A stretch of DNA of 64,000 bases from Patescibacteria group bacterium (GTDB lineage: Bacteria; Patescibacteriota; Patescibacteriia; PEXW01): assembly GCA_041665345.1 (NCBI GenBank), contig JBAYJA010000001.1, positions 602,522 through 666,521 on the forward strand. The letters run 5' to 3'. How positions within the stretch are numbered: position 1 is the stretch's first letter; every line of letters starts with the position of its first letter. A model generated the notes under the pieces. That model saw only the letters and a list, made by a program, of their open reading frames with translations. It was not told where the DNA came from and did no database searches. The position numbers and the translations under genes are program-made. Of this stretch, positions 36,790 to 52,091 are shown one piece after another.

Positions 36790-37113
36790 CTAGTGGAGAC
36801 CGTGGTGCCCAACCCGTGCACTCAGGCCACGTTCTTTGGCATCCCGAAGTTGGCGTTGCAATTTTTCCACAGCCAGGTCAACCGCTGCATACATTTCATC
36901 TGCCTTTTCTCCGGCTTTGTAGGTTTTTCCTTGCCAGAGCGCGGAAACTTCCACGCGGAAAATATTCCCATGCTTCTGGTTCTTATCCACGTCAAAGCGC
37001 ACCCGGAGCTGGGTTAAGGGCTTTCGGCTGAGGTGCACCAGTGCACCAAATTTCTCTTCAGCGTATGCTTGCAGGCTGGGGGTCAGTTTGAAATTCTTGG
37101 CAGAGAAAATCAT
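36790..37113 (-). CDS. hpf: Ribosome hibernation promoting factor (HPF/RaiA family)
   Basis: Sigma-54 modulation protein/S30EA fold (KFGALVHL..., VEKLQRQL). Confidence 0.8.
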   Translation of the reverse strand: MIFSAKNFKLTPSLQAYAEEKFGALVHLSRKPLTQLRVRFDVDKNQKHGNIFRVEVSALWQGKTYKAGEKADEMYAAVDLAVEKLQRQLRDAKERGLSARVGHHGLH

Positions 37114-38033
37114 AGGGAGGCAAAATTTGCTTGCGAAGGAGTTTCAAAACCCAGGTACCGCACTTCTTCTTCTAACTGTACCCCAAGTTTATCACGGACT
37201 TGCTGCTTGACGTAACTAATGAGAATAACGATATCTTCGGCGGTTGCTGTGCCCGTATTGGTGATGAAATTTGCATGGTCTTCAGACACTTTGGCGCCAC
37301 CAATTTTCTTGCCTTTCAGCCCAGCTTCCTGGATGAGCTTCCCCGCGTGGTTCCCCGTGGGATTTTTGAAAATGCATCCAGCACACCACGCGCCCTTGGG
37401 TTGCCAGCCCCGGCGGGTTACCGCTTCACGCACGCGCTCTTGAATGACCGTTGGATTCTCAGGCGTCAATTCCAGCACCCCACCGGTGATGAGTTCCTGG
37501 GTATTGTACTTAAAGCGTGAGTAGCGGTAGGACACGTCAAGCTGATCCCGGGTGTAGGTTTTCTCTTCTCCGGCCAAGGTTAGGGCACGTACTTCTTTGG
37601 CAAATTCCGCAATGCCATGTCCACCCGTTCCTGCATTCCCAGCCAAAGCACCTCCAAATGAGCCGGGCACACCAACCGCAAATTCTATGCCACCCAAATT
37701 GGCACCAATTGCTGCACGAACGATGCGGCTGAGTGTCGTACCTGCATCCGCGTCTACCGTATTCCCTACGACTTCGCACCGGCTGGATGTGAACTGAATA
37801 ATCAAGCCGGGAAAACCAGCATCTGCGACTAGTACATTGCTGCCACCACCCAGCGGAGCTACCGGTAAATGCGCTTCGTTCGCAAGAGCTAAAGCCTTGG
37901 CGATGAGTGCTGTATCGCCAGATGACAGAAAGTACTTCGCCGGGCCGCCAACTTGGAAAGTGACGTGCTTGGCAAGTGGTTCGTTCTGCAGCATCCCTGG
38001 GAGTGCTGCAAGTGTCTGAAGTGGATTGGCCAT
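37110..38033 (-). CDS. murB: UDP-N-acetylenolpyruvoylglucosamine reductase MurB
   Basis: FAD-binding domain motif FQVGGPAKYF with full-length similarity. The ORF track extends to 38183, but the MANPLQ start gives the canonical length. Start coordinate is approximate. Confidence 0.75.
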   Translation of the reverse strand: MANPLQTLAALPGMLQNEPLAKHVTFQVGGPAKYFLSSGDTALIAKALALANEAHLPVAPLGGGSNVLVADAGFPGLIIQFTSSRCEVVGNTVDADAGTTLSRIVRAAIGANLGGIEFAVGVPGSFGGALAGNAGTGGHGIAEFAKEVRALTLAGEEKTYTRDQLDVSYRYSRFKYNTQELITGGVLELTPENPTVIQERVREAVTRRGWQPKGAWCAGCIFKNPTGNHAGKLIQEAGLKGKKIGGAKVSEDHANFITNTGTATAEDIVILISYVKQQVRDKLGVQLEEEVRYLGFETPSQANFASL

Positions 38034-39095: not shown

Positions 39096-39124
39096 CCCCA
39101 TCTCATTGAGATGGGGTTTTTGTT
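39096..39124. terminator. Bidirectional rho-independent terminator (shared with convergent murC)
   Basis: 9-bp stem CCCCATCTC/GAGATGGGG with loop ATT, followed by TTTTTG. The murC stop codon lies inside the stem. Confidence 0.55.
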
Positions 39125-40470
39125 GCGACATCGTAGAAGGAAGTAATATTCCCAGCCCCTACGGTGAGCACGACATCTCCTGGCTGAAGGATTGCCTGGG
39201 TTTTGGTAATGGCATCAGCGACGTCGCGCGCATACTGGGCGCTCTCACCCAAGGCAGTCACAATTTCCTGACTAGAGATTGCTTCGCCCTGCTCACGACC
39301 AGCAACGTCGTAAATATCCAAGATCACTTGCTTATCCGCAAGCCGAAGTGCTTGGACAAACCCAGGCAGTAGCGCTTGGGTTCGGCTACGCTGGTGCGGC
39401 TGGAACACGCAGAGGATTCTCCGCCCTGGGAATGCCTGCCGCGCTGCCTGTAGGGTTGCCGTGAGTTCGGTTGGGTGATGTGCGTAGTCATCCACAATGT
39501 CCGCGCCTTGCCACGTGCCTCGCCGCTCAAACCTTCGCCAGGTGCCGGGGAAGGCAGTAAGTCCTTGGCAAATTGCCGTTGTTGGAATACCCAGATGATG
39601 AGCAACCAGCGCGGCAGCGAGCGCGTTGAGGACATTGTGCTCACCCGGAACCTGCAACGTCACGGTTTCCGAAAGCAGCCCGTGGAAAGTGAAAACGGTT
39701 TTTCCGCCTGCAGAAGATAAACCGTGAACCTGTAGATCACCAGCGCTGAGTCCAAAGGTATGCACGGTGCCGGTAGCGTGTAACCGCAAGGCTGGGGTGG
39801 AAAGGTCTTCAGCGGAGAGTGCAATGGATCCATGCGCAGGCACCCGTGCAACAAAGGTTGCGAAAGCTTCCCGCACCTCAGCGAGATCATGGTACACATC
39901 CACGTGGTCAAGCTCTACGTTCAGAACTGCGACGTGGGTTGGTTCGTACGCAAAAAAGGCACGCTGATACTCATCAGCTTCGACAAGTACTTCCTCGCCG
40001 TTCCCAATGCGTTCATTCGTTTGCCCAAAGAGCGCAACCCGCGTGCCAACAATAACCGTTGGGTCTTTCTTCGCCGCATCCAGAATGTACGCCAGCATTG
40101 CGGTGGTCGTGGATTTCCCATGCGTACCAGCAATGCCAATACCAACTTTCCCCTGCATGAGCTCGCCGACTGCCTGCGGGTATGTCAATAGAGGAATGTG
40201 CCGAGTAATCGCTGCTTGGACTTCTGGGTTGGTATCCCCTGCTGCCACTGTCCGAATGACGAGGTCACATGTATCTGGTACGTGAGCTGCCTGGTGTGGC
40301 CCAATGGCAACAGCTACACCATGCGCCTGTAGCCACTCGGTTACGGGTTGGGATTGCAAATCACTTCCAGATACTTTTTTCCCGTTTTCCAGTGCCCACT
40401 TGGCAATGGCAGACAAACCAATGCCGCTGATCCCAATGCAGTGAATGGAGCTGGCGTTGCGTAAGGTCAT
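39103..40470 (-). CDS. murC: UDP-N-acetylmuramate--L-alanine ligase MurC
   Basis: Mur ligase motifs IGISGIGLSAIA and GTHGKSTTTAML. Start placed at MTLRNASS. Confidence 0.85.
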   Translation of the reverse strand: MTLRNASSIHCIGISGIGLSAIAKWALENGKKVSGSDLQSQPVTEWLQAHGVAVAIGPHQAAHVPDTCDLVIRTVAAGDTNPEVQAAITRHIPLLTYPQAVGELMQGKVGIGIAGTHGKSTTTAMLAYILDAAKKDPTVIVGTRVALFGQTNERIGNGEEVLVEADEYQRAFFAYEPTHVAVLNVELDHVDVYHDLAEVREAFATFVARVPAHGSIALSAEDLSTPALRLHATGTVHTFGLSAGDLQVHGLSSAGGKTVFTFHGLLSETVTLQVPGEHNVLNALAAALVAHHLGIPTTAICQGLTAFPGTWRRFERRGTWQGADIVDDYAHHPTELTATLQAARQAFPGRRILCVFQPHQRSRTQALLPGFVQALRLADKQVILDIYDVAGREQGEAISSQEIVTALGESAQYARDVADAITKTQAILQPGDVVLTVGAGNITSFYDVATKTPSQ

Positions 40471-41516
40471 ACGAGGGAAAGAATTTTTTCCGCCAGGGTT
40501 GATGCGCCCGCAGTTGACCAAGACCCGGCGAGGGCTGTGCTGAGCTGCGTTCGATAGTCTGCATCAGCACAGATGCGGCTTATCAACCCTGCGAACTTCT
40601 CTGGCGTACACTCTGCTTGCTGGAGAACCACTGCGCCACGTTGAGCAAGGGTTTTTGCATTTTGCTCTTGGTGCGTGCCAGGCAGCGGCACAATAATTGC
40701 GGGTTTTTGCAGGGCAACGAGTTCGGCCAGGACATTCATCCCCGCCCGCGTGATGACCATAGTGGCTAGGGCGTACACATCCGGCAAATTTTCGTTGGTA
40801 AAGGAAATAGCCACGTACCCTGGTCGGTTGACGTGCGCAGCTTTCTGTTCGCCAGTGATGTGGAGCACTTGAAGGCTACTAGGCAGCAGCGGCAGCGCGC
40901 TGAGAAAAGCTGCATTCAGATCCCGCGCACCCGAACTCCCACCAACCACTACAACGGTTGGCTGGTGCGCATCCAACCCGTAGGTTTGGGCAGCCTGGCT
41001 AGCCTTGCCGGCCTGCAAATCCGCCCGGAGCACAAAACCTATTGCTTTAGCCCCACCTGGAACCTGCGCTGCTTGTTCTGGAAGCGCAGCGGTACGGAGT
41101 TTCGCGACCTTGGCAATCAGCCGGTTCGCCAAGCCCACCTGCATGTCCTGCTGGTACAGAACGACCGGAATACCCAAGCTCGCGGCTGCCCAGGCCACTG
41201 GCACAGCCACGTAACTACCAGCCGTTACAACTGCCGCAGGCCTGCTGAGCAGCAGACGAAACCAAGCCACCACGACAGCACAGGCGACCAGACAAATGTC
41301 CAAGAAATTTTGGAGCGAAAAATACTGCCGGTACTTGCCAGCCGGAATCCAGCTATAGGGCATGCCCGCAGCCTGCACCACGGACTTTTCCAGCCCAACG
41401 CGTCGCCCCCAAAACTTGACCTGGATGTCTGGCCGACGCTGGGCAATTGCACGGCTACAGGCCAGGAGCGGATTCACCGAACCCAGAGTCCCCCCACCCA
41501 CAAAAAGCAACTTCAT
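40467..41516 (-). CDS. murG: Undecaprenyldiphospho-muramoylpentapeptide beta-N-acetylglucosaminyltransferase MurG
   Basis: GT28 architecture (GGGTLGSVNP ... HQEQNA), placed within the dcw cluster. Confidence 0.85.
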   Translation of the reverse strand: MKLLFVGGGTLGSVNPLLACSRAIAQRRPDIQVKFWGRRVGLEKSVVQAAGMPYSWIPAGKYRQYFSLQNFLDICLVACAVVVAWFRLLLSRPAAVVTAGSYVAVPVAWAAASLGIPVVLYQQDMQVGLANRLIAKVAKLRTAALPEQAAQVPGGAKAIGFVLRADLQAGKASQAAQTYGLDAHQPTVVVVGGSSGARDLNAAFLSALPLLPSSLQVLHITGEQKAAHVNRPGYVAISFTNENLPDVYALATMVITRAGMNVLAELVALQKPAIIVPLPGTHQEQNAKTLAQRGAVVLQQAECTPEKFAGLISRICADADYRTQLSTALAGSWSTAGASTLAEKILSLV

Positions 41517-42610
41517 ACGCGCACGCTTTTAGAGACATTCAGAGCAATGCCAATGGCAGCCAGGGTAATAATTAAGGACGTGCCACCATTAGAAATGAAG
41601 GGTAAGGGTACACCGGTCAACGGCAAAATGCCACTCAGCGCCCCAATATTCACAAAGGCCTGCAAAGTGACCCAGGTAATGACCCCCACCATAATCAGCC
41701 GGCCAAACGGGTCGCTCAGCCGCCGTGCCAGCTGCTGCCCGCGCCAGAAGAAACCAACGTAGAGTGCAACGAGACCCACGACCATGAAGAAGCCTAGCTC
41801 TTCGGCCGCAATGGCAAAAATCGAATCGCCCTCAGCTTCCGGCAAGTAGTTAAATTTTTGGATGGACCGGCCGTAGCCCCGGCCAAAGAGCCCACCAGAG
41901 CCAATAGCCAGCAAGGACTGATTAATGTGGTACCCCTCATCTTGCTGGCTGGACGATGGGTTGAGGAAAATGGTCAGCCGTGCGGCGCGGTAGGGTTCAA
42001 AGGTAATGAGCAACATAATGGCCACGACGCCTGCTGCAAACAGCAGCGCAATGTACCGACCCGGCGCACCGGCCGCCACGTAGAGGACAGTCGCAATGCC
42101 CACAATGACAATGCTCGTACCCAAGTCAGGCTGCAGAATGAGCATACCGCCAATGGCGCCAATCAAAATCAGTAAACGCACAAACACCCGCTGGGGTTCA
42201 CGCTCCAAATCGCCTAGCTTGGTAAACCACCGCGCCAGGAAAAGAATAAGCGCCAACTTGAGCAACTCCGAAGGTTGGAAGAACAAACCACCAAAGGCAA
42301 TCCACCGCTTGGCGCCCAAAAGCGAGGTGCCCACTCCAGGGATGAAGAGGGCAACGACGAGCAGGAAACTCACCACCAGAATTGGGACTGCCCACTTCTG
42401 CCAGTGCAGGTACGGTACCCGGGCCAGGAGCAGCATGATGGCAATCCCCAAGCAGAGGGAAATGATTTGCTTGGTCACGTACCCGTTTGGGTCGCCCAAA
42501 TTTTGGAAGGCAGCCACACTGCTGGCTGAAGCCAAAATGATTATGCCAATGACGCAGAGAGCAAGGGTGAGGCTGAGTAAAATGCCGTCGACGCTCTGAG
42601 AGGATTTCAT
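41513..42610 (-). CDS. ftsW: SEDS family peptidoglycan glycosyltransferase FtsW
   Basis: Ten-TM SEDS family pattern, located between murD and murG. Confidence 0.85.
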   Translation of the reverse strand: MKSSQSVDGILLSLTLALCVIGIIILASASSVAAFQNLGDPNGYVTKQIISLCLGIAIMLLLARVPYLHWQKWAVPILVVSFLLVVALFIPGVGTSLLGAKRWIAFGGLFFQPSELLKLALILFLARWFTKLGDLEREPQRVFVRLLILIGAIGGMLILQPDLGTSIVIVGIATVLYVAAGAPGRYIALLFAAGVVAIMLLITFEPYRAARLTIFLNPSSSQQDEGYHINQSLLAIGSGGLFGRGYGRSIQKFNYLPEAEGDSIFAIAAEELGFFMVVGLVALYVGFFWRGQQLARRLSDPFGRLIMVGVITWVTLQAFVNIGALSGILPLTGVPLPFISNGGTSLIITLAAIGIALNVSKSVRV

Positions 42611-44718
42611 ACGAGCGTCCGAACAGCTTTGACGAATTGCGCACCCCGGTCAAATTCATTCCGGAACAGTCCAAAGCTGGCTGCCCCAGGAGAAAGCAGA
42701 ACTATATCCCCAGACTGAGCGTGCTTCTGCGCTTCTCGGACTGCACGAGGCATCGAATTGACCAGCTGGTGACGGACCCGCAAGGCTGGCAACATTTTCT
42801 GCGTGGCTGAACCGGGTAAGAGCACCACAAACTTTGCCGACGCATTCAGTGCTCGGATGAGTGGCTGTAAAGGGAAATGCTTGTCTGTTCCTCCGGCAAT
42901 GACAACACATTTTTTAGGGAAAGCACTCCGAATACTCATGGCCGCAGCTTCCGGGTTGGTTGCGGTCGTGTCGTTGATCCAGGTGACGCCGCGGTGCTGG
43001 CGGACGGTTTGAAAACGTTCAGGTACCCCAGGAAAAGTCTGCAAACTTTTCGCAATGGTTGCGGGGGCAATGCCAAGCGCACGAGCAGCTAAGGCGGCAA
43101 TCATTGCATTTTGCCAAAATGCTGGGTGCGCCACCGCTAATTTTCGCACTGCCACTAGCCTTTCAACCCGAGCACCAAGTTTTACCATAATCCAGCCACG
43201 GTCGAGCCAGGCATGGGCCCGAGCCTGTGGCTTGGCGGCAAACCACAGCACACGTGCCCGAGTTTGTTTGGCAAACTGCTGCGCCGCTGGATTATCCAAA
43301 GGCAAAAGCAGAAAATCCTTTTTGGTTTGTCCACGAGTAATGAGCTGCTTCGCTGCAAGGTACGGACGCATGCTGCCATACCGGTTCAGGTGGTCTGGAA
43401 AAAGGCTGGTCACAATGCCAATGCGCGGTGCTAAGGGCATGGCCTGCGTATCTTCCAACTGAAAAGAAGACACCTCCAGCACCACTCGCGTGCGCCCATC
43501 AAATGCCTGCGGAAAAGCCAGGGGCGATACCCCAACATTTCCCGCCAGCACAGTCTTGGGCAAATGACGCCGAAGGATGTGCGCCAGCATGGACGCGGTC
43601 GTGGTTTTTCCTTTCGTACCCGTTACCACATACACAGGGTTCTGGCTATGACTGCGGAAAAGCCCAAGGTCACCAATAATCAGCGCACCTTTTTTCCTGG
43701 CCGCACGCAGGGCTGGATGGTCTGGCCGGACGCCTGGATTTTTGATAATCACCTCAGCATTTGCAAGCAATGCACTGGGATTTTTTTTCCCAAAAGCGTA
43801 CTGCACTGGCAGGCCTCGGAGGTTGAGCAAAACTTGAGTAAAATCTTTGCGCGGTCGAGCATCAACAACGCTCACCTGTGCATGATTTGCAACCGCGTAG
43901 CGTACGCTCGCTTCTCCCCCACCCTGGACACCCAAACCAAAGACCGCAACTTTTCGACCTCGGAGATCTGTGGGTACTGACGTGCGGGAGATAATGGACA
44001 AGGTGTTGGTCTTCGTCTCCCCGTCCCGCCGAAAAGAAGGGAGAGCACTGGTTTCATGCGTGCATGGTGCCTTTGTGTCAATATTCGCTTTTCGCACGCC
44101 CATGGCAACCAACTGCCGAACCACCCCAGCCCGTAGGTCAACCAGCCCACCGCGCGCTGTGGGTTGAACACTCCCGCGCAGGGCTTTCCGGATAATTTGC
44201 AAACGTTTCTTATTGGTCACCTCGTAGCATCTTCCACAAATGGACGGCCCCAACCATACCCGCACTTTTTTTGGCTTAACCCCTTGGCGTTTGAGAAGCA
44301 TGATCACCTCAGCCGCAATATTTTTCACTGCACCTTTCCAACCTACATGGAGGAGGCCAACCCAGCCCGTTTCTGGTTCAGCCAGGAAAACTGGGATGCA
44401 ATCAGCAGTAAAAACCCCAAGGGCAATATTCGGCCGCTGTGTCAGGAGCCCGTCCGTTGCCGGCAAGTAGGTTTTAGGCGCCAGCACCCCGGCGCCAATA
44501 TCATGATCAGTAACAATGCGCACCCGTTGTCCATGCACTTGTCGGCCGAGCACTAGCCGGTCAACAACAATCCCAACGGCTTTCCCAAACGCTCGCCGCT
44601 GCGCCAGCACCTTTTGCCGCGGGTTTGCCCGGAAAGTCAACGGCAAAAAGCCTCTGGCGGCGGTGCCAAACTGAATTCCTGGGAGCTGCGCTAGTTTTGC
44701 TGAACGAAAAACCTCCAT
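42607..44718 (-). CDS. murD: Fusion protein: N-terminal peptidoglycan editing factor PgeF (YfiH/DUF152, laccase-like) plus C-terminal UDP-N-acetylmuramoylalanine--D-glutamate ligase MurD
   Basis: Residues 1-245 carry FTADCIPVFL, LLHVGWKG, CGRCYEV and SFRRDGETKTN, typical of YfiH/PgeF. From ~aa 250, RKVAVFGLGVQGG and VTGTKGKTTT indicate MurD. There is one continuous frame with no stop. Junction near nt 43970-43980. Confidence 0.75.
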   Translation of the reverse strand: MEVFRSAKLAQLPGIQFGTAARGFLPLTFRANPRQKVLAQRRAFGKAVGIVVDRLVLGRQVHGQRVRIVTDHDIGAGVLAPKTYLPATDGLLTQRPNIALGVFTADCIPVFLAEPETGWVGLLHVGWKGAVKNIAAEVIMLLKRQGVKPKKVRVWLGPSICGRCYEVTNKKRLQIIRKALRGSVQPTARGGLVDLRAGVVRQLVAMGVRKANIDTKAPCTHETSALPSFRRDGETKTNTLSIISRTSVPTDLRGRKVAVFGLGVQGGGEASVRYAVANHAQVSVVDARPRKDFTQVLLNLRGLPVQYAFGKKNPSALLANAEVIIKNPGVRPDHPALRAARKKGALIIGDLGLFRSHSQNPVYVVTGTKGKTTTASMLAHILRRHLPKTVLAGNVGVSPLAFPQAFDGRTRVVLEVSSFQLEDTQAMPLAPRIGIVTSLFPDHLNRYGSMRPYLAAKQLITRGQTKKDFLLLPLDNPAAQQFAKQTRARVLWFAAKPQARAHAWLDRGWIMVKLGARVERLVAVRKLAVAHPAFWQNAMIAALAARALGIAPATIAKSLQTFPGVPERFQTVRQHRGVTWINDTTATNPEAAAMSIRSAFPKKCVVIAGGTDKHFPLQPLIRALNASAKFVVLLPGSATQKMLPALRVRHQLVNSMPRAVREAQKHAQSGDIVLLSPGAASFGLFRNEFDRGAQFVKAVRTLV

Positions 44719-44775
44719 ACCTGCAGAATAGCATATGCTTTTCCTCCCCTGCGAATGGTACGGCGAAGCGTGGTT

Positions 44776-45821
44776 CTAACCCCGCTCCACCAGGAAGAGC
44801 ACAATGCCCAGCACGCAGAACACCCCCGCGATGACCCAGAAACGCATGACGATTTTTGCTTCGGGCCAGCCTTTGGCTTCCAGGTGGTGATGGAATGGAG
44901 CCGACAGAAAAACTTTTTTCTTGCGAAAGCGTTTCGATAGAAGCTGAATAATGACGCTGACAGACTCGAGAACGAAAAGGATGCCAATGACGGGGAGCAA
45001 AAAAACCTCATTGGTGAGCATGGCTAAAATGCCAAGGGTCACACCGAGAGACATGGCACCGGTATCGCCCATGAAGAAGCGCGCCGGCGGTATGTTGAAC
45101 CATAAGAAAGCAAGCAATGCACCCACCACCACGGCCGTGAACGTAGCTAACTCAAACCGACCCTGGGCAAATGCAATGGCGCCAAAGGCCGTAAACGCGG
45201 CGAGTAACGTTCCCCCTGAGAGCCCATCTAAACCATCAATTTCATTCACCGAAAAAGCTGTGGAAACAATGACAAAAATGAAGAGCGGGAAGTACCACCA
45301 CCCAATGGCAAAATTACCAAAAAATGGAACGTGAATTGTATCAAAATCGAGTTTAAAAAAGAACCACCAAGCACCTATGAGTGCAATCGCGGTGTAAATG
45401 AGCACTTTATGCCGGACCTGCAGCCCCCCGCCCTTCGGCCCCCACCCGCGGACATTGAAGTAGTCATCCACCAAGCCAACCAGAGCCGAAGCCACAAGTG
45501 TCGCTAATGGCAACCAGGTTTGCTGACGGGTGAGAAAATTAAGATCATGCCAAAACCCGCTGGGCACAACTTGCCGCAGCACAAAGAAGAACACTGCAAA
45601 GAGTGCAACCGTAAACCAAATAAGCACGCCACCCATGGTTGGCGTTCCAGCTTTTTTCTTATGGAACTGCGCAAATACTGGCGCATCAGTCGTGGCCCGA
45701 ATTTTTTTCCCCAAGCGATACTTGTACAGGATACTTGCCCAGAGCGGCGTTAATCCCATGGTAAATGCAAACGCCAACGTTGCAAGCAGAAGAATGCGAA
45801 TAATCGGAAAGAGGTCGGTCA
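44776..45821 (-). CDS. mraY: Phospho-N-acetylmuramoyl-pentapeptide transferase MraY
   Basis: Ten-TM MraY with DD/DG motifs (VDDYFNV, NEIDGLDGL). Start placed at MTDLFPIIRI. Confidence 0.9.
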
Positions 45822-46187
45822 TACAACAATTTGCTGGAAGCGGAGCAAGAAGAGCACCCACAGGACACCAAGATTCACCATGCACGTGCCTGCAGAGAGT
45901 AGGGATGGGAGGTGCTGCGAACGTCGGTACACCCATGGCGCAAACCACAGCCACAGTCCCAAGGTAAGAATGCTCGCAATGAGCGGGAGGCTCCACAGTA
46001 GCCAACCCACCCCAATGCCGTCAATCCCATAGGGAATGCTATAATGGGTAACCACATTCGCACTACTGGGAGGAATACTGCTAACGACAATGAACCACGC
46101 CCCAACGAGCGCACCTGCACCAACGGCAAATCCAATGGTAACCCCACGACGCAATGCAACCACCCCAGCGAACGCTCGGTGGAACAT
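45819..46187 (-). CDS. Hypothetical small polytopic membrane protein translationally coupled to mraY
   Basis: ATGA stop/start overlap with mraY and 3-4 hydrophobic helices. Start uncertain between 46187 and 46280. Tightly divergent from the GT-C gene. Confidence 0.3.
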   Translation of the reverse strand: MFHRAFAGVVALRRGVTIGFAVGAGALVGAWFIVVSSIPPSSANVVTHYSIPYGIDGIGVGWLLWSLPLIASILTLGLWLWFAPWVYRRSQHLPSLLSAGTCMVNLGVLWVLFLLRFQQIVV

Positions 46188-46209: not shown

Positions 46210-47967
46210 ATGGTTGGAAGTATGCTTTGCCTCATGGCGTTCTTGCAGTGTACCTCCATGCGGGGAGAAGTCCAAACCATTGACGAAGGTGCGCACCTGG
46301 CTGCCGGGATGAGCTACTGGCAAACCCGGGATTTCCGGCTCAATGAGGAACACCCACCACTCATCAAGCTTCTGGCCGGTGCCGCTGCCCTTACTGCCCG
46401 ACCCACACTCCCGTTTGACAATGCTTCGTGGAAGGAAGGGAACCAGTGGGCTTTCGCTCAAGACCTTCTGTACCACAGTGGTAATAATGCCGATGATCTC
46501 CTATTTCGAGGACGCGTACCGATGGTTGCGCTTAGTCTCCTTCTGGGTTGGGTTATCTACCTGTGGGCACGTCGCTTCGGGGGTGATATTGCCGGGCTCC
46601 TCGCTCTAGGTTGGTACATTTTTGACCCGAACTTCCTTGCGCATGGTCGGTACATTACCACCGATGTGCCAGTGGCTCTGGGCTTTGCAGCAACACTCTA
46701 CCTCCTCACGCGTTACATTTCGAAGGCAACGTGGAAGTACGGCGTGGCTTTCGGCGCCGTCTTTGCGTTGACGCAAGCAACAAAATTTTCTGCAATTATT
46801 CTGTGGCCAATCATTTTCTTCACCCCGCTCCTCTGGATGCTCTGGTCACCAGGGACACGTGGTCAGTGGCGGCTTGCGTGGCAACGCACGTACCGCACGC
46901 TTGGGTGGGCGATTGCCGGTATGGTGGTCATTATTCCTCTGGTCTACCTTGGCCAATTCCAAAAAGGCAGCCAAGACTCCTGGATTACCTGGGCCATGGA
47001 GGAGCGTGACCGCGTCGTGAGTTCCGAAGCAATGACCACGCAACCCCCAGCGGTGCAACGTCTCATCACGCTATCAGATCCAAGTACCAGTACAGGAAAA
47101 GTGGTTCGCAACATCCTTCTGAACACTCCCATCCCCGCTTGGTCGTACGGCAAGGGCTTGGCGCTGGTCATCAACCATGACTTCTGGGGACACCTTTCCT
47201 ACCTCAACGGTATGTACGGCAACAAAGGCTGGGTACAGTACTTCCCCATCACCTTCCTGGTCAAAACACCGTTTGCAACTCTCATCGTCTTTGCACTCGC
47301 GATTGTCGCGGGTTTGGTTGCAGCCAGAAAAAAACTGCTGCAACTGCCTCCAGCTTTCTGGGTACTGAGTGGTAGCGCAATCCTCTACTTCGCCTGGAGT
47401 CTCACTAGTCACATCAACCTGGGGCAACGGCACATTTTCCCGGTCTACCCTGCAGTGTTCGTGACCATTGGTCTGTTTCTTGCCGCGGTTGTCCAGCAGC
47501 ACCGCCGCTGGCTCACCTGGCTGTTTGCCAGCATCACCGGTCTGTACCTACTCACCAGTCTGCTCACCTACCCTGCGTATACTTCCTACTTTTCCGAAGT
47601 CATTGGCGGCACTGCCAACGGCCCGCGCTACCTGGTGGATTCAAACATTGACTGGGGGCAAGATGTGAAACGTTTACAAACGTACATGGAGGAAAAGCAA
47701 ATACCTTTCGTTTGCATGAGCTACTTCGGCCAAGCAAATTTGGTCTACTACGGCTTGGACTTCCGGTACCTCCCAACCAAAGCTGACCGACACGATCCTG
47801 CCGCAGTAAATTGTGCAGTTGCAATTAGCGTTACGAGTCTCCTGGCACAGGATGGTGACTACTGGTGGCTGCGGCAGTACGAACCCGATGCACGTATTGG
47901 TGGGTCGCTCTACGTGTACGATTTCCGCAACGGCCGATCACCGCAGCTGGCAGCAAATCCGCTGTAA
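46210..47967 (+). CDS. GT-C fold membrane glycosyltransferase (PMT/ArnT, GT39/GT83-like)
   Basis: N-terminal TM, then IDEGAH (DE motif in the first extracytoplasmic loop) and a polytopic body typical of the PMT_2/ArnT family. Start uncertain between 46210 and 46258. Confidence 0.55.
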   Translation: MVGSMLCLMAFLQCTSMRGEVQTIDEGAHLAAGMSYWQTRDFRLNEEHPPLIKLLAGAAALTARPTLPFDNASWKEGNQWAFAQDLLYHSGNNADDLLFRGRVPMVALSLLLGWVIYLWARRFGGDIAGLLALGWYIFDPNFLAHGRYITTDVPVALGFAATLYLLTRYISKATWKYGVAFGAVFALTQATKFSAIILWPIIFFTPLLWMLWSPGTRGQWRLAWQRTYRTLGWAIAGMVVIIPLVYLGQFQKGSQDSWITWAMEERDRVVSSEAMTTQPPAVQRLITLSDPSTSTGKVVRNILLNTPIPAWSYGKGLALVINHDFWGHLSYLNGMYGNKGWVQYFPITFLVKTPFATLIVFALAIVAGLVAARKKLLQLPPAFWVLSGSAILYFAWSLTSHINLGQRHIFPVYPAVFVTIGLFLAAVVQQHRRWLTWLFASITGLYLLTSLLTYPAYTSYFSEVIGGTANGPRYLVDSNIDWGQDVKRLQTYMEEKQIPFVCMSYFGQANLVYYGLDFRYLPTKADRHDPAAVNCAVAISVTSLLAQDGDYWWLRQYEPDARIGGSLYVYDFRNGRSPQLAANPL

Positions 47968-47983
47968 TTTTTTAATACCGCGC

Positions 47984-48012
47984 TTGGTGAAAAGTAGCTT
48001 TTTTGGTATAAT
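47984..48012 (+). promoter_or_regulatory. Promoter with extended -10: TTGGTG-N17-(TGg)TATAAT upstream of pilB
   Basis: TTGGTGaaaagtagcttttttggTATAAT lies ~36 nt upstream of the pilB ATG. Confidence 0.5.
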
Positions 48013-48047
48013 CATTTCACCATGCTGCAAACAAACGGCCAATAATA

Positions 48048-49775
48048 ATGAAAACGGAAATTCTCACCAAACTCATTACAGAGGCCAATTTGCTTCCAGT
48101 ACAGTCCTTACTGGATGCGCAAAAAGCTGCGGATGCAAACCATACCCCCTTGGAGCAATACCTAGTGGAGGAAAATGTCGTATCCGAGAATGTACTATAC
48201 GAGGCAATTGCAAATTACTACCGGCTGCCATTTACTGACCTGAAGCAGAGTACTATCCGCAAAGATGTGCTGAATTTAGTTCCCGAACCTCTGGTGCAGG
48301 TCCACCAAGTGGTGGCTTTTGACAGTGACGCGAAAACGATTAAACTTGCAACGCTTGACCCGCGTGACCTGCAAACGTTTGAATTTATCAAGAAAAAAAC
48401 TGGTCTCACGCCTGAGTTGTCCATCACCACCCCTTCCAGCATCAAGAATGCCATTAGCCAGTACCACAAAGGCATGTCCGCAAAGTTTAAGGAGATTGCT
48501 GAGGAAACGGAAGCCAAAGATGCTGGGGGAGCGAAAGAGTTGACTGAGCTTGCCGAAGATTTGCCCATCATCCGGATTGTGGACAGCATGCTGGAGTATG
48601 CCATTTTCGAAAGTGCATCTGACATTCACCTGGAGCCCCAAGAAAAGGACTTAAGCGTTCGCTACCGCATTGACGGCCGGCTGAAGCAAGTGATGACCCT
48701 GCCAAAAGCTGTGCAGTCCGGGATTATTGCGCGCATCAAAATCCTTTCCAACCTAAAAATTGACGAGCACCGCTTACCCCAGGATGGACGCTTTACCATT
48801 ACGACGAAAGACTACAAGGTGGCTTTTCGGGTTTCCATTCTCCCCGTGTACGATGGGGAAAAAGCCGTCCTGCGCATCCTCAACGAATCCGCCCAAGTAC
48901 TGACCATGGAACAGCTTGGCTTGCAGCCCGGCCCCTTGGACATTCTCAAGCGAAACATTCAAAAACCGCACGGTATCATCCTGGTTACCGGGCCAACTGG
49001 TTCTGGGAAAACCACGACGCTCTACACCGTCCTGAACATTTTGAATAAGCCCGAAGTGAATATCTCCACGGTGGAAGACCCAATTGAGTATCGCATGCCC
49101 CGGGTAAACCAAAGCCAGGTGAATCCCAAAATTGGCTTCACGTTTGCTGGCGGCTTACGCTCACTCCTCCGCCAAGACCCAAACATCATCATGGTGGGGG
49201 AAATTCGGGACAATGAAACCGCGGAAATTGCCGCAAACGCCGCGATGACTGGGCACTTGGTCCTTTCCACCCTGCACACCAACGATGCCGTTACCGCCTT
49301 GCCTCGGCTGGGGGAAATGGGTGTCCCCTCTTTCCTCATTGCGTCCACGACAAACATCATCATGGCCCAGCGTTTGGTACGCAAAATTTGCCTGCACTGC
49401 ATCCAAAGTTACACATTGTCGGAAGCAGCCGTGCAGGATCTGCAGAAGCATTTCAACATTGACTTCATTCTCAAAACTCTGGAACGCGAGGGCGCCATTG
49501 TCTCTGCCAAAGCTCCCATTGCCTCACTCCTGTTCTACCGTGGCAAAGGCTGCAAGCAGTGCAACCACGAAGGGTACAAAGGCCGCATTGGTATTTACGA
49601 AGTTTTGGAGGTTACCCACAGCGTTGCTGACCTGATTTTGAACAAAGGCACCACCGAAGATCTCCGCCGCGCAGCCCAGGAGCAAGGCATGCTCACCATG
49701 GCGGAAGATGGTTTCATCAAAGCAAAATTCGGCATCACCACCATTGAGGAAGTCCTCCGCGTTACCAAAGAGTAA
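48048..49775 (+). CDS. pilB: Type IV pilus assembly ATPase PilB (GspE family)
   Basis: N-terminal GSPII_E N domains, Walker A VTGPTGSGKTTTLY, Asp/His boxes, and a tetracysteine motif CLHC...CKQC. Confidence 0.85.
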   Translation: MKTEILTKLITEANLLPVQSLLDAQKAADANHTPLEQYLVEENVVSENVLYEAIANYYRLPFTDLKQSTIRKDVLNLVPEPLVQVHQVVAFDSDAKTIKLATLDPRDLQTFEFIKKKTGLTPELSITTPSSIKNAISQYHKGMSAKFKEIAEETEAKDAGGAKELTELAEDLPIIRIVDSMLEYAIFESASDIHLEPQEKDLSVRYRIDGRLKQVMTLPKAVQSGIIARIKILSNLKIDEHRLPQDGRFTITTKDYKVAFRVSILPVYDGEKAVLRILNESAQVLTMEQLGLQPGPLDILKRNIQKPHGIILVTGPTGSGKTTTLYTVLNILNKPEVNISTVEDPIEYRMPRVNQSQVNPKIGFTFAGGLRSLLRQDPNIIMVGEIRDNETAEIAANAAMTGHLVLSTLHTNDAVTALPRLGEMGVPSFLIASTTNIIMAQRLVRKICLHCIQSYTLSEAAVQDLQKHFNIDFILKTLEREGAIVSAKAPIASLLFYRGKGCKQCNHEGYKGRIGIYEVLEVTHSVADLILNKGTTEDLRRAAQEQGMLTMAEDGFIKAKFGITTIEEVLRVTKE

Positions 49776-49784
49776 ACCACTAGT

Positions 49785-51005
49785 ATGCCAACCTTTGCGT
49801 ACACTGCCCGCGCTACCAACGGTGCCACCACCTCTGGGACGTTGGAAGCAAAAGATGAAAAATTCCTAGCCGCGGTCCTCAACGTTCGCGGACTTGCATT
49901 GCTCAACGCACACCAGGCTGAAGCAAAGAGTGGGAAGAAAAAATTTAGCCTGAATATTTCTTTTGGTGGGGTTCCCATTGTCCAGAAAATTTTCTTCTTG
50001 CAGAATTTGCAAGTGATGGTCCGAACCGGTTTCTCCCTTGGGCACGCGCTCGATACCCTTGCCCTGCAAACGGAGCATAAAATGTTCCGGGGGATTATTC
50101 AGGAACTCAGCCACGATGTTGAGGCGGGCACGACGCTTTCCGCAGCCATGGGCAAGCACCCCAAGGTTTTTACGGAGCTGTTCACCAACATGATTGCAGC
50201 TGGTGAAGTGTCAGGTAAATTAGAGGAAGTGCTGAAGCGACTGACTATTCAAATTAAGAAGCAGCACCAACTTGTTTCAAAAATCAAGGGTGCACTCACC
50301 TACCCCATCATTGTGGTTTCCGCCATGGTTGTTCTCGGCGTGGTCATGATGGTTGCGGTGCTCCCCAAACTCCTTACGGTATTTGATCAATCTGGCGGCG
50401 TGCTCCCGCTGCCGACACGCATTCTCATTGCCATCTCCAATTTTCTGCAACACAACTTGGTGTACGTCATCATTGGCGCGATTATCGTGGTCTTCACCTT
50501 CCGCTGGGCGGTGAAAAAGGGCAAGGGCCGTGCGTACTGGCATAGCTTTTTGCTGCAGCTGCCAATCCTGGCGCCAATCATGAAGAAAATTAACTTAGCA
50601 AAGTTTACCCGAAACTTAAGTTCACTCCTCAAAACCGACATCCCGATTGTGCAAACGTTTCAAATTATTTCCAAAACCTTGGGGAACGATAGCTACCGAC
50701 GCGCACTGGAGCACACGGCCGAGATGCTGAAGAAAGGTGCAAATATATCAAAAGTCCTTGCTCAGTCTCCCAAACTTTTTCCGCCCATTGTCGTGCAAAT
50801 GATTGCCGTGGGTGAAGAAAGTGGTACGCTGGATACAATCTCCGAAGAAATTGCAAACTTCTACGAAGAAGACGTTGACCAAATCATGTCTAACCTGACG
50901 TCTATCTTAGAACCAATTCTCATTCTCCTGCTGGGCGCGGGTGTTGCAGGCATGGTGGTTGCCGTAATTTTGCCTATTTACTCCCTCAGTGATCAAATAA
51001 CCTAA
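49785..51005 (+). CDS. pilC: Type IV pilus inner-membrane platform protein PilC (GspF family)
   Basis: Two GspF repeats and three TM segments of typical size. Confidence 0.85.
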   Translation: MPTFAYTARATNGATTSGTLEAKDEKFLAAVLNVRGLALLNAHQAEAKSGKKKFSLNISFGGVPIVQKIFFLQNLQVMVRTGFSLGHALDTLALQTEHKMFRGIIQELSHDVEAGTTLSAAMGKHPKVFTELFTNMIAAGEVSGKLEEVLKRLTIQIKKQHQLVSKIKGALTYPIIVVSAMVVLGVVMMVAVLPKLLTVFDQSGGVLPLPTRILIAISNFLQHNLVYVIIGAIIVVFTFRWAVKKGKGRAYWHSFLLQLPILAPIMKKINLAKFTRNLSSLLKTDIPIVQTFQIISKTLGNDSYRRALEHTAEMLKKGANISKVLAQSPKLFPPIVVQMIAVGEESGTLDTISEEIANFYEEDVDQIMSNLTSILEPILILLLGAGVAGMVVAVILPIYSLSDQIT

Positions 51006-51008
51006 TCC

Positions 51009-52091
51009 ATGTCGCTACTTCACCCCTTCAAACATGCAATGGGCATAGATATCAGCGACCAGGTGTTGCGGATGGTGCAACTTGCACCAGCCCGTAAAGG
51101 GTACCGAGTTCGTTCGGTCAGCGCTCGCCCGGTTCCAGCAGAAGCTATTCAAGAAGGTGAAATTCGCCAACCTGAAGTAGTCGTGAACATTCTCCGAGAT
51201 CTGATCCGTCGGAGTGCACTGAAGCACCCAAATACGCGGGCTGCAGTGGTGTGCTTACCAGAACGAAAAACCTTTACCAAAATTATTGAAGTGCCAAACG
51301 TTGAAGACGCACAATTTACCGTGTCACTCCGTAATGCACTGGCAGAGCACATTCCACTCAATCTCGACGAAGCATTTGTTGACTGGCAACCCATTGGCTC
51401 AGCTGATCCAAAAGCAAAAACCAGGCGGGTTATTGTTGCCGTCGCTCCGCAATTGCTCATTGAGAGCTACGTTTCCGCACTGAAAGCAGTTGGCATTATC
51501 CCCATCGTTTTTGAACCAGAGTCAGCCGCACTCAGCCGAGTTGCCATTCCGTCATCAGCGGCGAAAGGCAGCCATCTGATTATTGATCTGGGCGCAACCC
51601 GAACTGGACTGATTATCACTGAGGGTGATCTGGTAGCCTACTCTTCTACCCTCCCACTCTCTGGAACTGGGCTAACAAGCATTTTACAGGCGAAGCTTAG
51701 CCTAACCACAGAACAAGCTGAGCAAGCGAAACGTTTATGCGGGCTGGATCCGCGGAAGGGCAAGGGCGCAGTACGAGAATTACTGGAACCTGAGTTAAAA
51801 CCATTACTGCAAAGAATTCTGGAAATCATTAGCTACTACGAGGAACATGCAACTGCTGTGCTGCATGTGGTAGACGTAACCCTGGTTGGTGGTGGGGCAG
51901 CTATGCTAGGTCTCCCTGAACTAATGCAGTCAACTCTCAGCCTCCCAGTGCACGCTGGTACCTGGCCAGCAAATATTCGGGTACCTTCAACTCAGCTGCA
52001 GGCAGTGGCAACCTCCTACCTCACAGCCTTGGGTCTTGCGCTCCGTGGTGCCTCCGCGCATGCCTGGCGGAATGGGAATAACGACCTATGA
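51009..52091 (+). CDS. pilM: Type IV pilus assembly protein PilM (actin-like ATPase fold)
   Basis: GIDISDQVLRMVQL N-terminus and an ASKHA fold pattern, immediately followed by pilN/pilO-like genes. Confidence 0.8.
   Translation: MSLLHPFKHAMGIDISDQVLRMVQLAPARKGYRVRSVSARPVPAEAIQEGEIRQPEVVVNILRDLIRRSALKHPNTRAAVVCLPERKTFTKIIEVPNVEDAQFTVSLRNALAEHIPLNLDEAFVDWQPIGSADPKAKTRRVIVAVAPQLLIESYVSALKAVGIIPIVFEPESAALSRVAIPSSAAKGSHLIIDLGATRTGLIITEGDLVAYSSTLPLSGTGLTSILQAKLSLTTEQAEQAKRLCGLDPRKGKGAVRELLEPELKPLLQRILEIISYYEEHATAVLHVVDVTLVGGGAAMLGLPELMQSTLSLPVHAGTWPANIRVPSTQLQAVATSYLTALGLALRGASAHAWRNGNNDL

What the first reader, a model, noticed from the sequence alone, without database searches (positions are those of the whole stretch)
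42607..44718. PgeF (YfiH/DUF152 peptidoglycan editing factor) fused in frame to MurD
Seen: one uninterrupted 703-aa ORF. Its first ~245 residues carry the YfiH/PgeF hallmarks (FTADCIPVFL, LLHVGWKG, CGRCYEV, ..SFRRDGET..). The remainder is a complete MurD (GLGVQGG.., VTGTKGKTTT).

Established knowledge: PgeF removes mis-incorporated amino acids from the peptidoglycan stem peptide. Its gene often lies in the dcw cluster. A covalent PgeF-MurD protein would physically couple stem-peptide proofreading to the ligase step that follows MurC.
Basis: partly seen in the sequence, partly recalled or inferred. Interest (0 to 1): 0.55.

Follow-up and report, generated by a model that had tools for sequence, protein, structure and literature searches.

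The report
Cell-wall proofreading enzyme fused to MurD
In a lineage of tiny uncultivated bacteria (Patescibacteria), the enzyme that removes wrongly attached amino acids from cell-wall precursors (PgeF) is permanently joined to the next enzyme of the pathway (MurD); this conserved fusion was not described in the literature I could search and offers a test case for whether proofreading is physically coupled to cell-wall synthesis.

Summary
Window 42607-44718 (- strand) is one uninterrupted 703-aa ORF between mraY and ftsW. Residues 1-245 match PgeF/YfiH and residues 256-703 match MurD, both above curated cut-offs.

It is not an artefact:
- A second assembly encodes the identical protein.
- At least 24 full-length orthologue clusters (34-78% identical, Patescibacteria MAGs) share the architecture.
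- Junction spacing is fixed at 33-34 residues in 23 of them.
- The AF2 model is confident across the junction (pLDDT 90.8, pTM 0.81).

All residues needed for editing (Gln69, His71, Asp89, Asp106, Cys107, His124) and for MurD catalysis are conserved. Both modules are equally constrained.

Likely origin: pgeF lies immediately upstream of murD as a separate gene in Parcubacteria (2-nt gap) and Chloroflexota. One Kerfeldbacteria branch lost the module secondarily.

One twist: Arg235, which clamps the substrate carboxylate in E. coli, is Asn in all 21 close relatives. It is also absent in the murD-adjacent unfused forms.

The most likely function is a bifunctional editing amidase plus ligase acting on MurC's product pool. 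Kinetic coupling is inferred, not shown. This is a new variant of the known Mur-chimera kind, of moderate interest.

The parts
42607..44718 (-). Complete pgeF-murD fusion ORF (703 aa plus stop)
   Evidence: ORF. (both profiles above curated cut-offs). (identical protein P0001 in public assemblies, named only 'MurD').
43984..44718 (-). PgeF/YfiH (PF02578) module, residues 1-245
   Evidence: fold match to YlmD 6T1B (TM 0.84) and B. cereus PgeF 7FBG; catalytic residues conserved.
44398..44400 (-). Codon of the catalytic Cys107 (same number as E. coli Cys107), in the TADC beta-turn
   Evidence: Cys in 21/21 fused proteins and 115/115 stand-alone homologues. Its requirement for editing is from PMC8844914 and PMC12280929.
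44005..44007 (-). Codon of Asn238, the position equivalent to E. coli Arg235 (carboxylate clamp), part of the clade signature H/K-x-N-T-L
   Evidence: Asn in 21/21 fused proteins versus Arg in 110/115 stand-alone homologues.
43954..43983 (-). Junction, residues 246-255 (TSVPTDLRGR): about 5 linker residues followed by MurD's own N-terminal D-L-R-G-K/R segment
   Evidence: spacing from S-x-R-R to G-x-G is 33-34 aa in 23 of 24 fusions; block-mean pLDDT over residues 231-260 is 83, 89 and 91, with no disordered segment. D251, L252 and G254 are at least 90% conserved.
42607..43953 (-). MurD module (three Mur-ligase domains), residues 256-703 plus stop
   Evidence: TIGR01087, 368.5 bits; 1UAG TM 0.88; active-site residues invariant.
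43600..43620 (-). MurD ATP-binding P-loop, G367-T373 (GTKGKTT)
   Evidence: K371 = E. coli K115, 24/24. (invariant columns).
44776..45822 (-). mraY, immediately upstream on the same strand
   Evidence: PF00953, MraY_sig1. (called gene mapped to window coordinates).
44725..44733 (-). TGCTATTCT, an extended -10-like box 6 nt before the start codon (seen by eye; unverified)
   Evidence: related boxes TGGTATAGT, TGGTATACT and TGGTATGCT at the same place in L011, L095, L092 and L001; the consensus scan finds no full sigma-70 promoter here.
41513..42610 (-). ftsW, overlapping the fusion's stop codon by 4 nt
   Evidence: PF01098, E 3.8e-103.
40467..41516 (-). murG
39103..40470 (-). murC, the enzyme whose mis-ligation products PgeF edits; same operon-like string
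   Evidence: PF01225, PF08245 and PF02875 gene mapped to the window. (weak Mur-ligase hit at 39130-39591).
37110..38033 (-). murB

Best explanation
This is a genuine bifunctional protein.

Shown:
- One conserved ORF encodes a complete PgeF-type Cys-His-Asp amidase module joined by a very short, length-conserved linker to a complete MurD ligase.
- Both modules keep their catalytic residues and evolve under equal constraint.
- The gene sits at MurD's canonical place (mraY-murD-ftsW-murG-murC).

Inferred origin: loss of the stop codon between adjacent, co-oriented pgeF and murD genes. That arrangement still exists in Parcubacteria and Chloroflexota.

Inferred mechanism: MurC occasionally makes UDP-MurNAc-L-Ser or UDP-MurNAc-Gly instead of UDP-MurNAc-L-Ala. 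The N-module hydrolyses these back to UDP-MurNAc. The C-module adds D-Glu to the correct UDP-MurNAc-L-Ala. Both modules draw on the same metabolite pool. The fusion therefore fixes proofreader and committing ligase at 1:1 and places the editing site next to the enzyme that would otherwise carry a wrong intermediate forward.

My confidence by step: real fusion about 0.97, both modules catalytic about 0.75, a real kinetic advantage from proximity about 0.4.
For: - ORF and profiles.
- Conservation of the architecture: 21 full-length clusters at 42-78% identity, plus P0241, P0242 and P0275 at 34-38%.
- Same syntenic block in L005, L011 and L092.
- Editing residues Q69, H71, D106, C107 and H124 are invariant in all 21 close fusions and D89 in 20 of 21. 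PMC12280929 shows each of H71, D89, D106, C107 and H124 is required for editing, and PMC8844914 shows Gln69 is the specificity determinant.
- MurD residues K115, E157, H183, K198, R302, T321, K348 and S415 are invariant and N138 is conserved in 23 of 24 fusions.
- Equal constraint: mean pairwise identity 0.509 (PgeF) versus 0.518 (MurD).
- Fixed 33-34-residue junction spacing.
- AF2 mean pLDDT 90.8 and pTM 0.81, with a confident junction.
- Folds match PgeF/YlmD and substrate-bound MurD.
- Pre-fusion state: stand-alone pgeF ends 2 nt before murD in L008 and L009; the genes are adjacent but in different frames in Chloroflexota L028, L031 and L032.
- UDP-MurNAc-monopeptides are PgeF's preferred substrates (PMC12280929, PMC8844914).
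Against: [quoted passage not shown]
- The MurNAc-stacking Tyr227 is Ala in 16 of 21 and Phe in the window. Canonical substrate binding is therefore not guaranteed.
- In E. coli no PgeF-MurC or PgeF-MurD interaction was detected (PMC12280929).
- One sub-lineage (P0025 and P0026) lost the module, so the fusion is dispensable there.
- No biochemical data exist for any member.
Confidence: 0.55

Rival explanations
1. Both modules are active with canonical functions, but the fusion is selectively neutral. It arose by stop-codon loss between adjacent operon genes and gives co-expression only, with no channelling or kinetic gain.
For: - Adjacency without fusion works in Parcubacteria and Chloroflexota.
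- One branch lost the module.
- E. coli PgeF works without contacting MurC or MurD (PMC12280929).
- Several known Mur chimeras join non-consecutive enzymes (PMC10214165).
Against: - The architecture persists down to 34% identity.
- Linker length is fixed in 23 of 24 fusions.
- The junction and inter-domain arrangement are predicted confidently.
- An unrelated hydrolase occupies the same N-terminal position of MurD in a syntenic locus. This hints at selection for a hydrolase-MurD unit.
Confidence: 0.25
2. The murD-linked PgeF subtype has a shifted substrate. Without the Arg235 carboxylate clamp it edits intermediates whose first-residue carboxylate is no longer free. These would be UDP-MurNAc-X-D-Glu (the MurD product) or a MurD-bound acyl-phosphate. 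That would be post-transfer editing in cis, analogous to the editing domains of aminoacyl-tRNA synthetases.
For: - Arg235 is Asn in 21/21 close fusions, Ser or Thr in the murD-adjacent Parcubacteria genes, and Thr in the murD-adjacent Chloroflexota genes. It is Arg in 110/115 other homologues.
- A PgeF in the classical ftsZ-downstream position keeps Arg.
- E. coli YfiH already cleaves UM-dipeptides weakly (PMC8844914, PMC12280929).
Against: - A conserved His or Lys two residues before the Asn (21/21) could replace the Arg.
- P0241 keeps an Arg at this position.
- Gln69, which reads the side chain of residue 1, is retained.
- There is no structural or biochemical test.
Confidence: 0.12
3. The N-module is catalytically silent. 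It serves as a substrate-binding, regulatory or structural cap for MurD.
For: Two substrate-contact residues are lost (Arg235, Tyr227). Vertebrate homologues keep the triad yet lack editing activity (PMC12280929).
Against: The full Cys-His-Asp triad, His71, Asp106, Gln69 and the oxyanion turn are near-invariant across 42-78% identity. Overall constraint equals that on MurD.
Confidence: 0.04
4. The N-module works as a purine nucleoside phosphorylase, adenosine deaminase or laccase (other activities reported for DUF152), unrelated to peptidoglycan editing.
For: RefSeq still names E. coli YfiH a purine nucleoside phosphorylase. Weak PNP activity has been measured for bacterial homologues (PMC6978800, PMC12280929).
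Against: - PNP activity needs more than 500-fold more enzyme, has no phenotype, and does not use the conserved triad (PMC12280929).
- Here the triad is invariant, and the module is welded to or adjacent to murD inside the dcw string in three lineages.
Confidence: 0.03
5. Assembly or annotation artefact: two genes merged by a sequencing frameshift or a missed stop.
For: Raw reads were not examined. The two assemblies carrying the identical protein differ by only 2 SNPs and one run of N, so they may derive from the same population.
Against: The same in-frame architecture appears in at least 24 divergent clusters from NCBI, JGI, ENA and Logan assemblies.
Confidence: 0.01

Closest known systems
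E. coli PgeF/YfiH (b2593; PDB 7F3V, 1Z9T) and Geobacillus/Bacillus YlmD/PgeF (PDB 6T0Y, 1T8H, 7FBG, 6DZD)
   Same: Same fold (TM 0.78-0.84). Same catalytic set: Gln69, His71, Asp89, Asp106, Cys107, His124, Trp127, Arg228. Association with the dcw region.
   Different: - It is covalently fused to MurD rather than free-standing.
- Arg235 is replaced by Asn within an H/K-x-N-T-L signature, and Tyr227 by Phe or Ala.
- It is only 28-43% identical to any stand-alone homologue.
- The gene sits upstream of murD, not downstream of ftsZ as in Actinomycetes or next to rluD as in E. coli.
E. coli MurD (b0088; PDB 1UAG, 2UAG, 4UAG)
   Same: Three-domain Mur ligase fold (TM 0.88). P-loop, carbamylated-Lys position, His183 and D-Glu-binding residues are conserved. 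Same gene position between mraY and ftsW.
   Different: It carries a 245-aa N-terminal hydrolase module. It is about 28% identical.
Natural Mur chimeras (MurE-MurF of Bordetella pertussis, MurC-Ddl of Chlamydia, MurC-MurB, MurG-MurC, MurD-FtsW, MraY-MurG; PMC10214165)
   Same: Neighbouring dcw genes are fused into one polypeptide. The linker-less rigid head-to-tail type resembles the B. pertussis MurE-MurF subtype.
   Different: The partner is a hydrolytic proofreading enzyme, not another biosynthetic enzyme. This type is not in that survey, which excluded unidentified species. It has so far been seen only in Patescibacteria MAGs.
Cis-editing domains of aminoacyl-tRNA synthetases (e.g. the CP1 domain of IleRS, ValRS and LeuRS). 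This is a functional analogy drawn from general knowledge.
   Same: A hydrolytic proofreading module is covalently attached to an ATP-dependent amino-acid ligase, removing near-cognate small amino acids such as Ser and Gly in place of Ala.
   Different: The folds and chemistry are unrelated. Here the error is made by the preceding enzyme (MurC), not by the ligase that carries the editor. No translocation mechanism is known.
Vertebrate LACC1/FAMIN
   Same: A PF02578 domain embedded in a larger multidomain protein.
   Different: In LACC1 the domain is C-terminal and the partner is unrelated. It has no PG-editing activity (PMC12280929) and Thr replaces the Gln69 specificity residue (PMC8844914).

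Membership tests
PgeF/YfiH (TIGR00726, PF02578) | Profile match above the curated cut-off | tested here: met
   TIGR00726: 146.2 bits against 141.15, a narrow margin. PF02578: 170.7 bits against 22.9.
PgeF/YfiH (TIGR00726, PF02578) | Catalytic triad Cys107-His124-Asp89, plus His71 and Asp106, each required for editing (PMC12280929) | tested here: met
   C, H, H and D106 in 21/21; D89 in 20/21. Window residues are H62, D89, D106, C107 and H124.
PgeF/YfiH (TIGR00726, PF02578) | Gln69, the specificity determinant for L-Ser over L-Ala (PMC8844914) | tested here: met
   Gln in 21/21 (window Q60). The distant fusion P0242 appears to lack it, by visual inspection only.
PgeF/YfiH (TIGR00726, PF02578) | Arg235, which forms a salt bridge to the free carboxylate of the stem amino acid (PMC8844914) | tested here: not met
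   Asn in 21/21 fused proteins (window N238), Arg in 110/115 stand-alone homologues. A conserved His or Lys lies two residues upstream.
PgeF/YfiH (TIGR00726, PF02578) | UDP-MurNAc groove residues Trp127, Arg/Lys128, Tyr227 and Arg228 | tested here: inconclusive
   W127 and R228 are invariant and position 128 is K or R. Tyr227 is Phe (window and 2 others), Ala (16), Arg (1) or His (1).
PgeF/YfiH (TIGR00726, PF02578) | YfiH/YlmD fold | tested here: met
   6T1B TM 0.84 (rmsd 2.2), 7FBG 0.82, 6DZD 0.78. The model has pLDDT 90.8.
PgeF/YfiH (TIGR00726, PF02578) | Amidase activity on UDP-MurNAc-L-Ser or UDP-MurNAc-Gly | not testable with these tools
   Requires enzyme assays.
MurD (TIGR01087) | Equivalog profile above cut-off with full-length coverage | tested here: met
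   368.5 bits against 211.95, profile positions 1-440 of 441. The next best Mur ligase models (MurF, MurC, MurE) score 70-85 bits, far below their cut-offs.
MurD (TIGR01087) | ATP and Mg site (P-loop Lys115, Glu157, His183, carbamylated Lys198, Arg302) and D-Glu site (Thr321, Lys348, Ser415). The residue list is from my memory of the E. coli MurD structure papers. | tested here: met
   all are invariant in 24/24 fusions; Asn138 in 23/24. Phe422 is not conserved (Glu).
MurD (TIGR01087) | Three-domain Mur ligase fold | tested here: met
   1UAG TM 0.88, 4UAG 0.87 (rmsd 3.1).
MurD (TIGR01087) | Position between mraY and ftsW in the dcw cluster | tested here: met
   The order is the same as in E. 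coli.
Natural Mur chimeras (PMC10214165) | Two dcw-associated enzymes encoded as one polypeptide, conserved among related genomes | tested here: met
   at least 24 full-length clusters. The PgeF-MurD pair itself is not among the types listed in that survey.

The most novel reading that the evidence does not exclude
murD-linked PgeFs (adjacent in Parcubacteria and Chloroflexota, fused in Kerfeldbacteria-like Patescibacteria) form a distinct subtype. Having lost the Arg235 carboxylate clamp, they proofread at or after the MurD step, acting on the MurD-bound intermediate or on UDP-MurNAc-X-D-Glu. The fusion would then be a true cis-editing ligase, the peptidoglycan counterpart of aminoacyl-tRNA-synthetase editing domains. 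The alpha/beta-hydrolase-MurD variant found at the same syntenic position (P0291, P0386) would be a non-homologous replacement of that editor.
Probability: 0.12. Interest if true: 0.8.

Novelty: new variant of a known kind. Interest (0 to 1): 0.5.

Why it matters
PgeF was established only recently (2017-2025) as the proofreader of the first stem-peptide position. [quoted passage not shown]

What this locus adds:
- It shows that nature has made that connection covalently, and with MurD rather than MurC, in a lineage of minimal-genome bacteria.
- It shows that pgeF-murD adjacency extends to Chloroflexota.
- It gives independent 'Rosetta-stone' genomic support for the peptidoglycan role of DUF152 over the disputed PNP and laccase annotations.
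- It adds a new type to the catalogue of Mur chimeras.
- It provides a tractable single-polypeptide system for testing whether proximity improves editing.
- Public annotation currently hides it, since every member with a name is called only 'MurD'.

The Arg235 loss and the alternative hydrolase-MurD fusion suggest there may be more than one way to guard the MurD step.

Tried and rejected
1. **'Deletion scar' in the unfused Kerfeldbacteria MurDs.** Their first 12-13 residues (MLFNMAVFNLKK) matched fused N-termini. After trimming the ML·N prefix the similarity equals that of control MurDs (48 of 94 controls score at least as high). The prefix overlaps a conserved -10-like box. I withdrew this as evidence for the direction of change. 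Secondary loss rests on the trees.

2. **Several independent fusion events.** NJ trees never join the MurD halves of P0241, P0242 or P0275 to the main clade (0/100). However, P0241 and P0242 share the full synteny and the 34-residue junction spacing. Independent origin is therefore not established for them. P0275, with a longer linker and a PgeF nearest to stand-alone Parcubacteria genes (64/100), may be separate. NJ with Kimura distances at 0.7-1.3 substitutions per site is weak here.

3. **Census of GTDB genomes.** It did not recover the close relatives and is not a census.

4. **N-domain-only homologue search.** It did not list the fused proteins themselves, so it cannot be used to count fusions.

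5. **AFDB50 fold search.** The library was unavailable.

6. **Sigma-70 promoter scan upstream of the ORF.** Nothing was found.

7. **First MurD active-site check.** It used numbering off by one and was redone.

8. **Arg235 absence as a strict marker of murD linkage.** Not strict. P0139 lacks it and is not murD-linked, though it has an Arg two residues earlier. P0241 is fused yet keeps an Arg.

9. **tRNA and Rfam scans of the whole window.** No hits.
Full report
**Observation**

The window carries one uninterrupted ORF at 42607-44718 on the minus strand (703 aa, ATG start). On the same strand it is preceded by mraY (44776-45822). It is followed by ftsW (41513-42610, 4-nt overlap), murG, murC and murB.

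Pfam places PF02578 (Cu-oxidase_4/DUF152) at residues 33-241 (E 4.5e-50). The three MurD domains lie at 256-349, 365-499 and 568-677. NCBIfam gives the MurD equivalog TIGR01087 at 368.5 bits (cut-off 211.95), covering 1-440 of 441 profile positions. It gives the PgeF equivalog TIGR00726 at 146.2 bits (cut-off 141.15).

**Not an artefact**

The window is identical to a 1,075,605-bp ENA contig. A separate JGI assembly, 99.93% identical over 18 kb, encodes the same 703-aa protein. A search of 5.8 billion proteins found 21 full-length clusters of 691-707 aa with the same architecture at 42-78% identity. They come from NCBI, JGI, ENA and Logan assemblies. Where named, they are called only 'MurD' from Patescibacteria or Parcubacteria MAGs. 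Three shorter hits (P0022-P0024) start mid-domain or at the linker. For P0023 and P0024 this coincides with a contig end or a very short contig, so they look like truncated fusions. The exhaustive search of 1.84 billion representatives added three more distant fusions: P0241 (a Kerfeldbacteria MAG), P0242 and P0275, at 34-38% identity.

**Anatomy**

Against E. coli YfiH and 115 stand-alone homologues, the fused module keeps Gln69, His71, Asp106, Cys107, His124, Trp127 and Arg228 in 21/21 sequences and Asp89 in 20/21. The literature shows that H71, D89, D106, C107 and H124 are each required for editing (PMC12280929). It also shows that Gln69 is the Ser-versus-Ala specificity determinant (PMC8844914).

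In the MurD half, the P-loop Lys, Glu157, His183, the carbamylated-Lys position 198, Arg302, Thr321, Lys348 and Ser415 are invariant in all 24 fusions.

Mean pairwise identity is 0.509 for the PgeF module and 0.518 for MurD, so neither is decaying.

The last PgeF strand (…NTLSIISR) is followed by about five residues and then MurD's own N-terminal D-L-R-G-K segment. The spacing from the S-x-R-R motif to the G-x-G motif is 33-34 residues in 23 of 24 fusions.

An AlphaFold2 model built on the 21-sequence alignment has mean pLDDT 90.8 and pTM 0.81. It has no low-confidence segment at the junction. Its halves superpose on YlmD/PgeF structures (TM up to 0.84) and on substrate-bound MurD (TM 0.88). 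No PDB entry spans both.

**A family-specific departure**

Arg235 of E. coli YfiH makes a bidentate salt bridge with the free carboxylate of the stem amino acid. Its removal strongly reduces activity (PMC8844914). It is Arg in 110 of 115 stand-alone homologues but Asn in all 21 close fusions, within a signature H/K-x-N-T-L. Tyr227, which stacks on MurNAc, is Phe in the window and Ala in 16 of 21.

The murD-adjacent but unfused genes of Parcubacteria (Ser or Thr) and Chloroflexota (Thr) also lack the Arg. A PgeF in the classical ftsZ-downstream position keeps it. The correlation is not strict. P0241 keeps an Arg, and P0139 lacks it without murD linkage. I cannot tell whether the conserved His/Lys substitutes for the Arg or whether substrate preference has shifted.

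**Origin and evolution**

In Parcubacteria loci L008 and L009 a stand-alone pgeF ends 2 nt before murD, in the string mraY-murI-(Na/Ca exchanger)-pgeF-murD-ftsW-murG. In three Chloroflexota MAGs pgeF is immediately upstream of murD in a different frame. In Actinomycetes it lies 1.4-2.7 kb from the nearest MurD-like (Mur ligase) match, elsewhere in the dcw region. The simplest origin is therefore stop-codon loss between adjacent genes.

The window, P0241 and P0242 share a full syntenic block: T2SS-F, T2SS-E, PMT_2, a small ORF, mraY, the fusion, ftsW and onward.

On a MurD tree, the 21 close fusions plus the two unfused Kerfeldbacteria MurDs (P0025, P0026) form a clade in 100/100 bootstraps. 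The unfused pair nests inside a subclade with P0015, P0019 and P0021 (100/100). The PgeF modules of the 21 are monophyletic (91/100) and share the unique signature. One gain followed by one loss is therefore the parsimonious reading.

I first took an N-terminal similarity as a deletion scar. I withdrew it after a control showed it depends on a prefix that overlaps a conserved -10-like box.

**Mechanism**

Shown: a conserved single polypeptide with two complete, constrained catalytic modules at MurD's place in the dcw string.

From the literature: PgeF hydrolyses UDP-MurNAc-L-Ser and UDP-MurNAc-Gly, which are MurC's mistakes, far better than the L-Ala form. It prefers monopeptides, and at high enzyme levels it loses discrimination (PMC8844914, PMC12280929).

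Inferred: fusing it to MurD fixes the two competitors for the UDP-MurNAc-monopeptide pool at 1:1. It also puts the editor next to the enzyme that would commit an error. Whether proximity gives a kinetic gain is untested.

The authors of PMC12280929 looked for PgeF-MurC and PgeF-MurD association in E. coli and found none. This natural fusion is thus a direct counterpart to their question.

**Rivals**

- A neutral operon fusion (0.25).
- A shifted, post-MurD editing specificity suggested by the Arg235 loss (0.12).
- A silent binding module (0.04).
- A PNP or laccase function (0.03). This is disfavoured because PNP activity does not use the conserved triad (PMC12280929), while the triad is invariant here.
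- An artefact (0.01).

**Comparison and novelty**

Each half is an ordinary member of its family by profile, fold and catalytic residues. The exception is the unmet Arg235 feature in the PgeF half.

The combination is a Mur chimera of a type not listed in the systematic survey of such chimeras. That survey reports MurE-MurF, MurC-Ddl, MurC-MurB, MurG-MurC, MurD-FtsW and MraY-MurG, and it excluded unidentified species (PMC10214165). Full-text searches for PgeF, YfiH, DUF152 or ylmD together with MurD found no description of the fusion. The proteins exist in public databases but are named only MurD.

I rate it a new variant of a known kind, of moderate interest.

Noticed in passing
L095 7001-9142 (P0291, Kerfeldbacteria GCA_016214565.1); also P0386: At the same syntenic position (T2SS-F/E, PMT_2, mraY, NUDIX, X-MurD, ftsW, murG, murC, murB, secA), MurD carries an unrelated N-terminal alpha/beta-hydrolase module instead of PgeF. 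The module matches Hydrolase_4/S33 and has a GHSLGG nucleophile elbow. There are two clusters, 61% identical, both on contigs of about 1.1 Mb. This may be a non-homologous replacement of the editor.
   Followed up: partly
L011 9229-11095 (Kerfeldbacteria GCA_016204645.1): The gene after ftsW carries MurG domains plus the FAD_binding_4 domain of MurB in one product of 622 aa that reaches the end of the contig. This is an apparent MurG-MurB fusion in the same cluster as the PgeF-MurD fusion P0241.
   Followed up: no
P0298, P0292, P0346: Other long MurD architectures appear among the top representatives: GrpB-MurD (600 aa), MurD with a C-terminal lactonase-type beta-propeller (855 aa), and a double Mur ligase (941 aa).
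   Followed up: no
window 44725-44733 (-); L011, L092, L095 and L001 just upstream of the start codons: A conserved extended -10-like box lies 6-13 nt before the murD or fusion start codon. It reads TGGTATAGT, TGGTATACT, TGGTATGCT, and TGCTATTCT in the window. This suggests an internal promoter and possibly a very short or absent leader. It also explains spurious 'ML·N' N-terminal extensions in some gene calls. The only strong GGAGG in the window's upstream region precedes an out-of-frame ATG inside this box. The consensus promoter scan found nothing.
   Followed up: partly
L008 749-4844 (Parcubacteria GCA_043826745.1): murI (glutamate racemase, the supplier of D-Glu for MurD) sits in the same string: mraY-murI-Na/Ca exchanger-pgeF-murD.
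   Followed up: no
window 1-64000: No tRNA gene and no Rfam family at gathering threshold in the entire 64-kb window.
   Followed up: no
window 46234-52091 (+ strand genes, divergent from mraY): A PMT_2 glycosyltransferase and the type IV pilus/T2SS genes (T2SS-E, T2SS-F, PilM, PilN) lie directly upstream of, and divergent from, the dcw string. This arrangement is conserved in all the Kerfeldbacteria-like loci examined.
   Followed up: no
window 44776-46005 (-): The mechanical mraY ORF (409 aa from TTG) is 61 aa longer than the called gene (348 aa, 44776-45822). It overlaps a 122-aa DUF2127-like ORF at 45819-46187.
   Followed up: no
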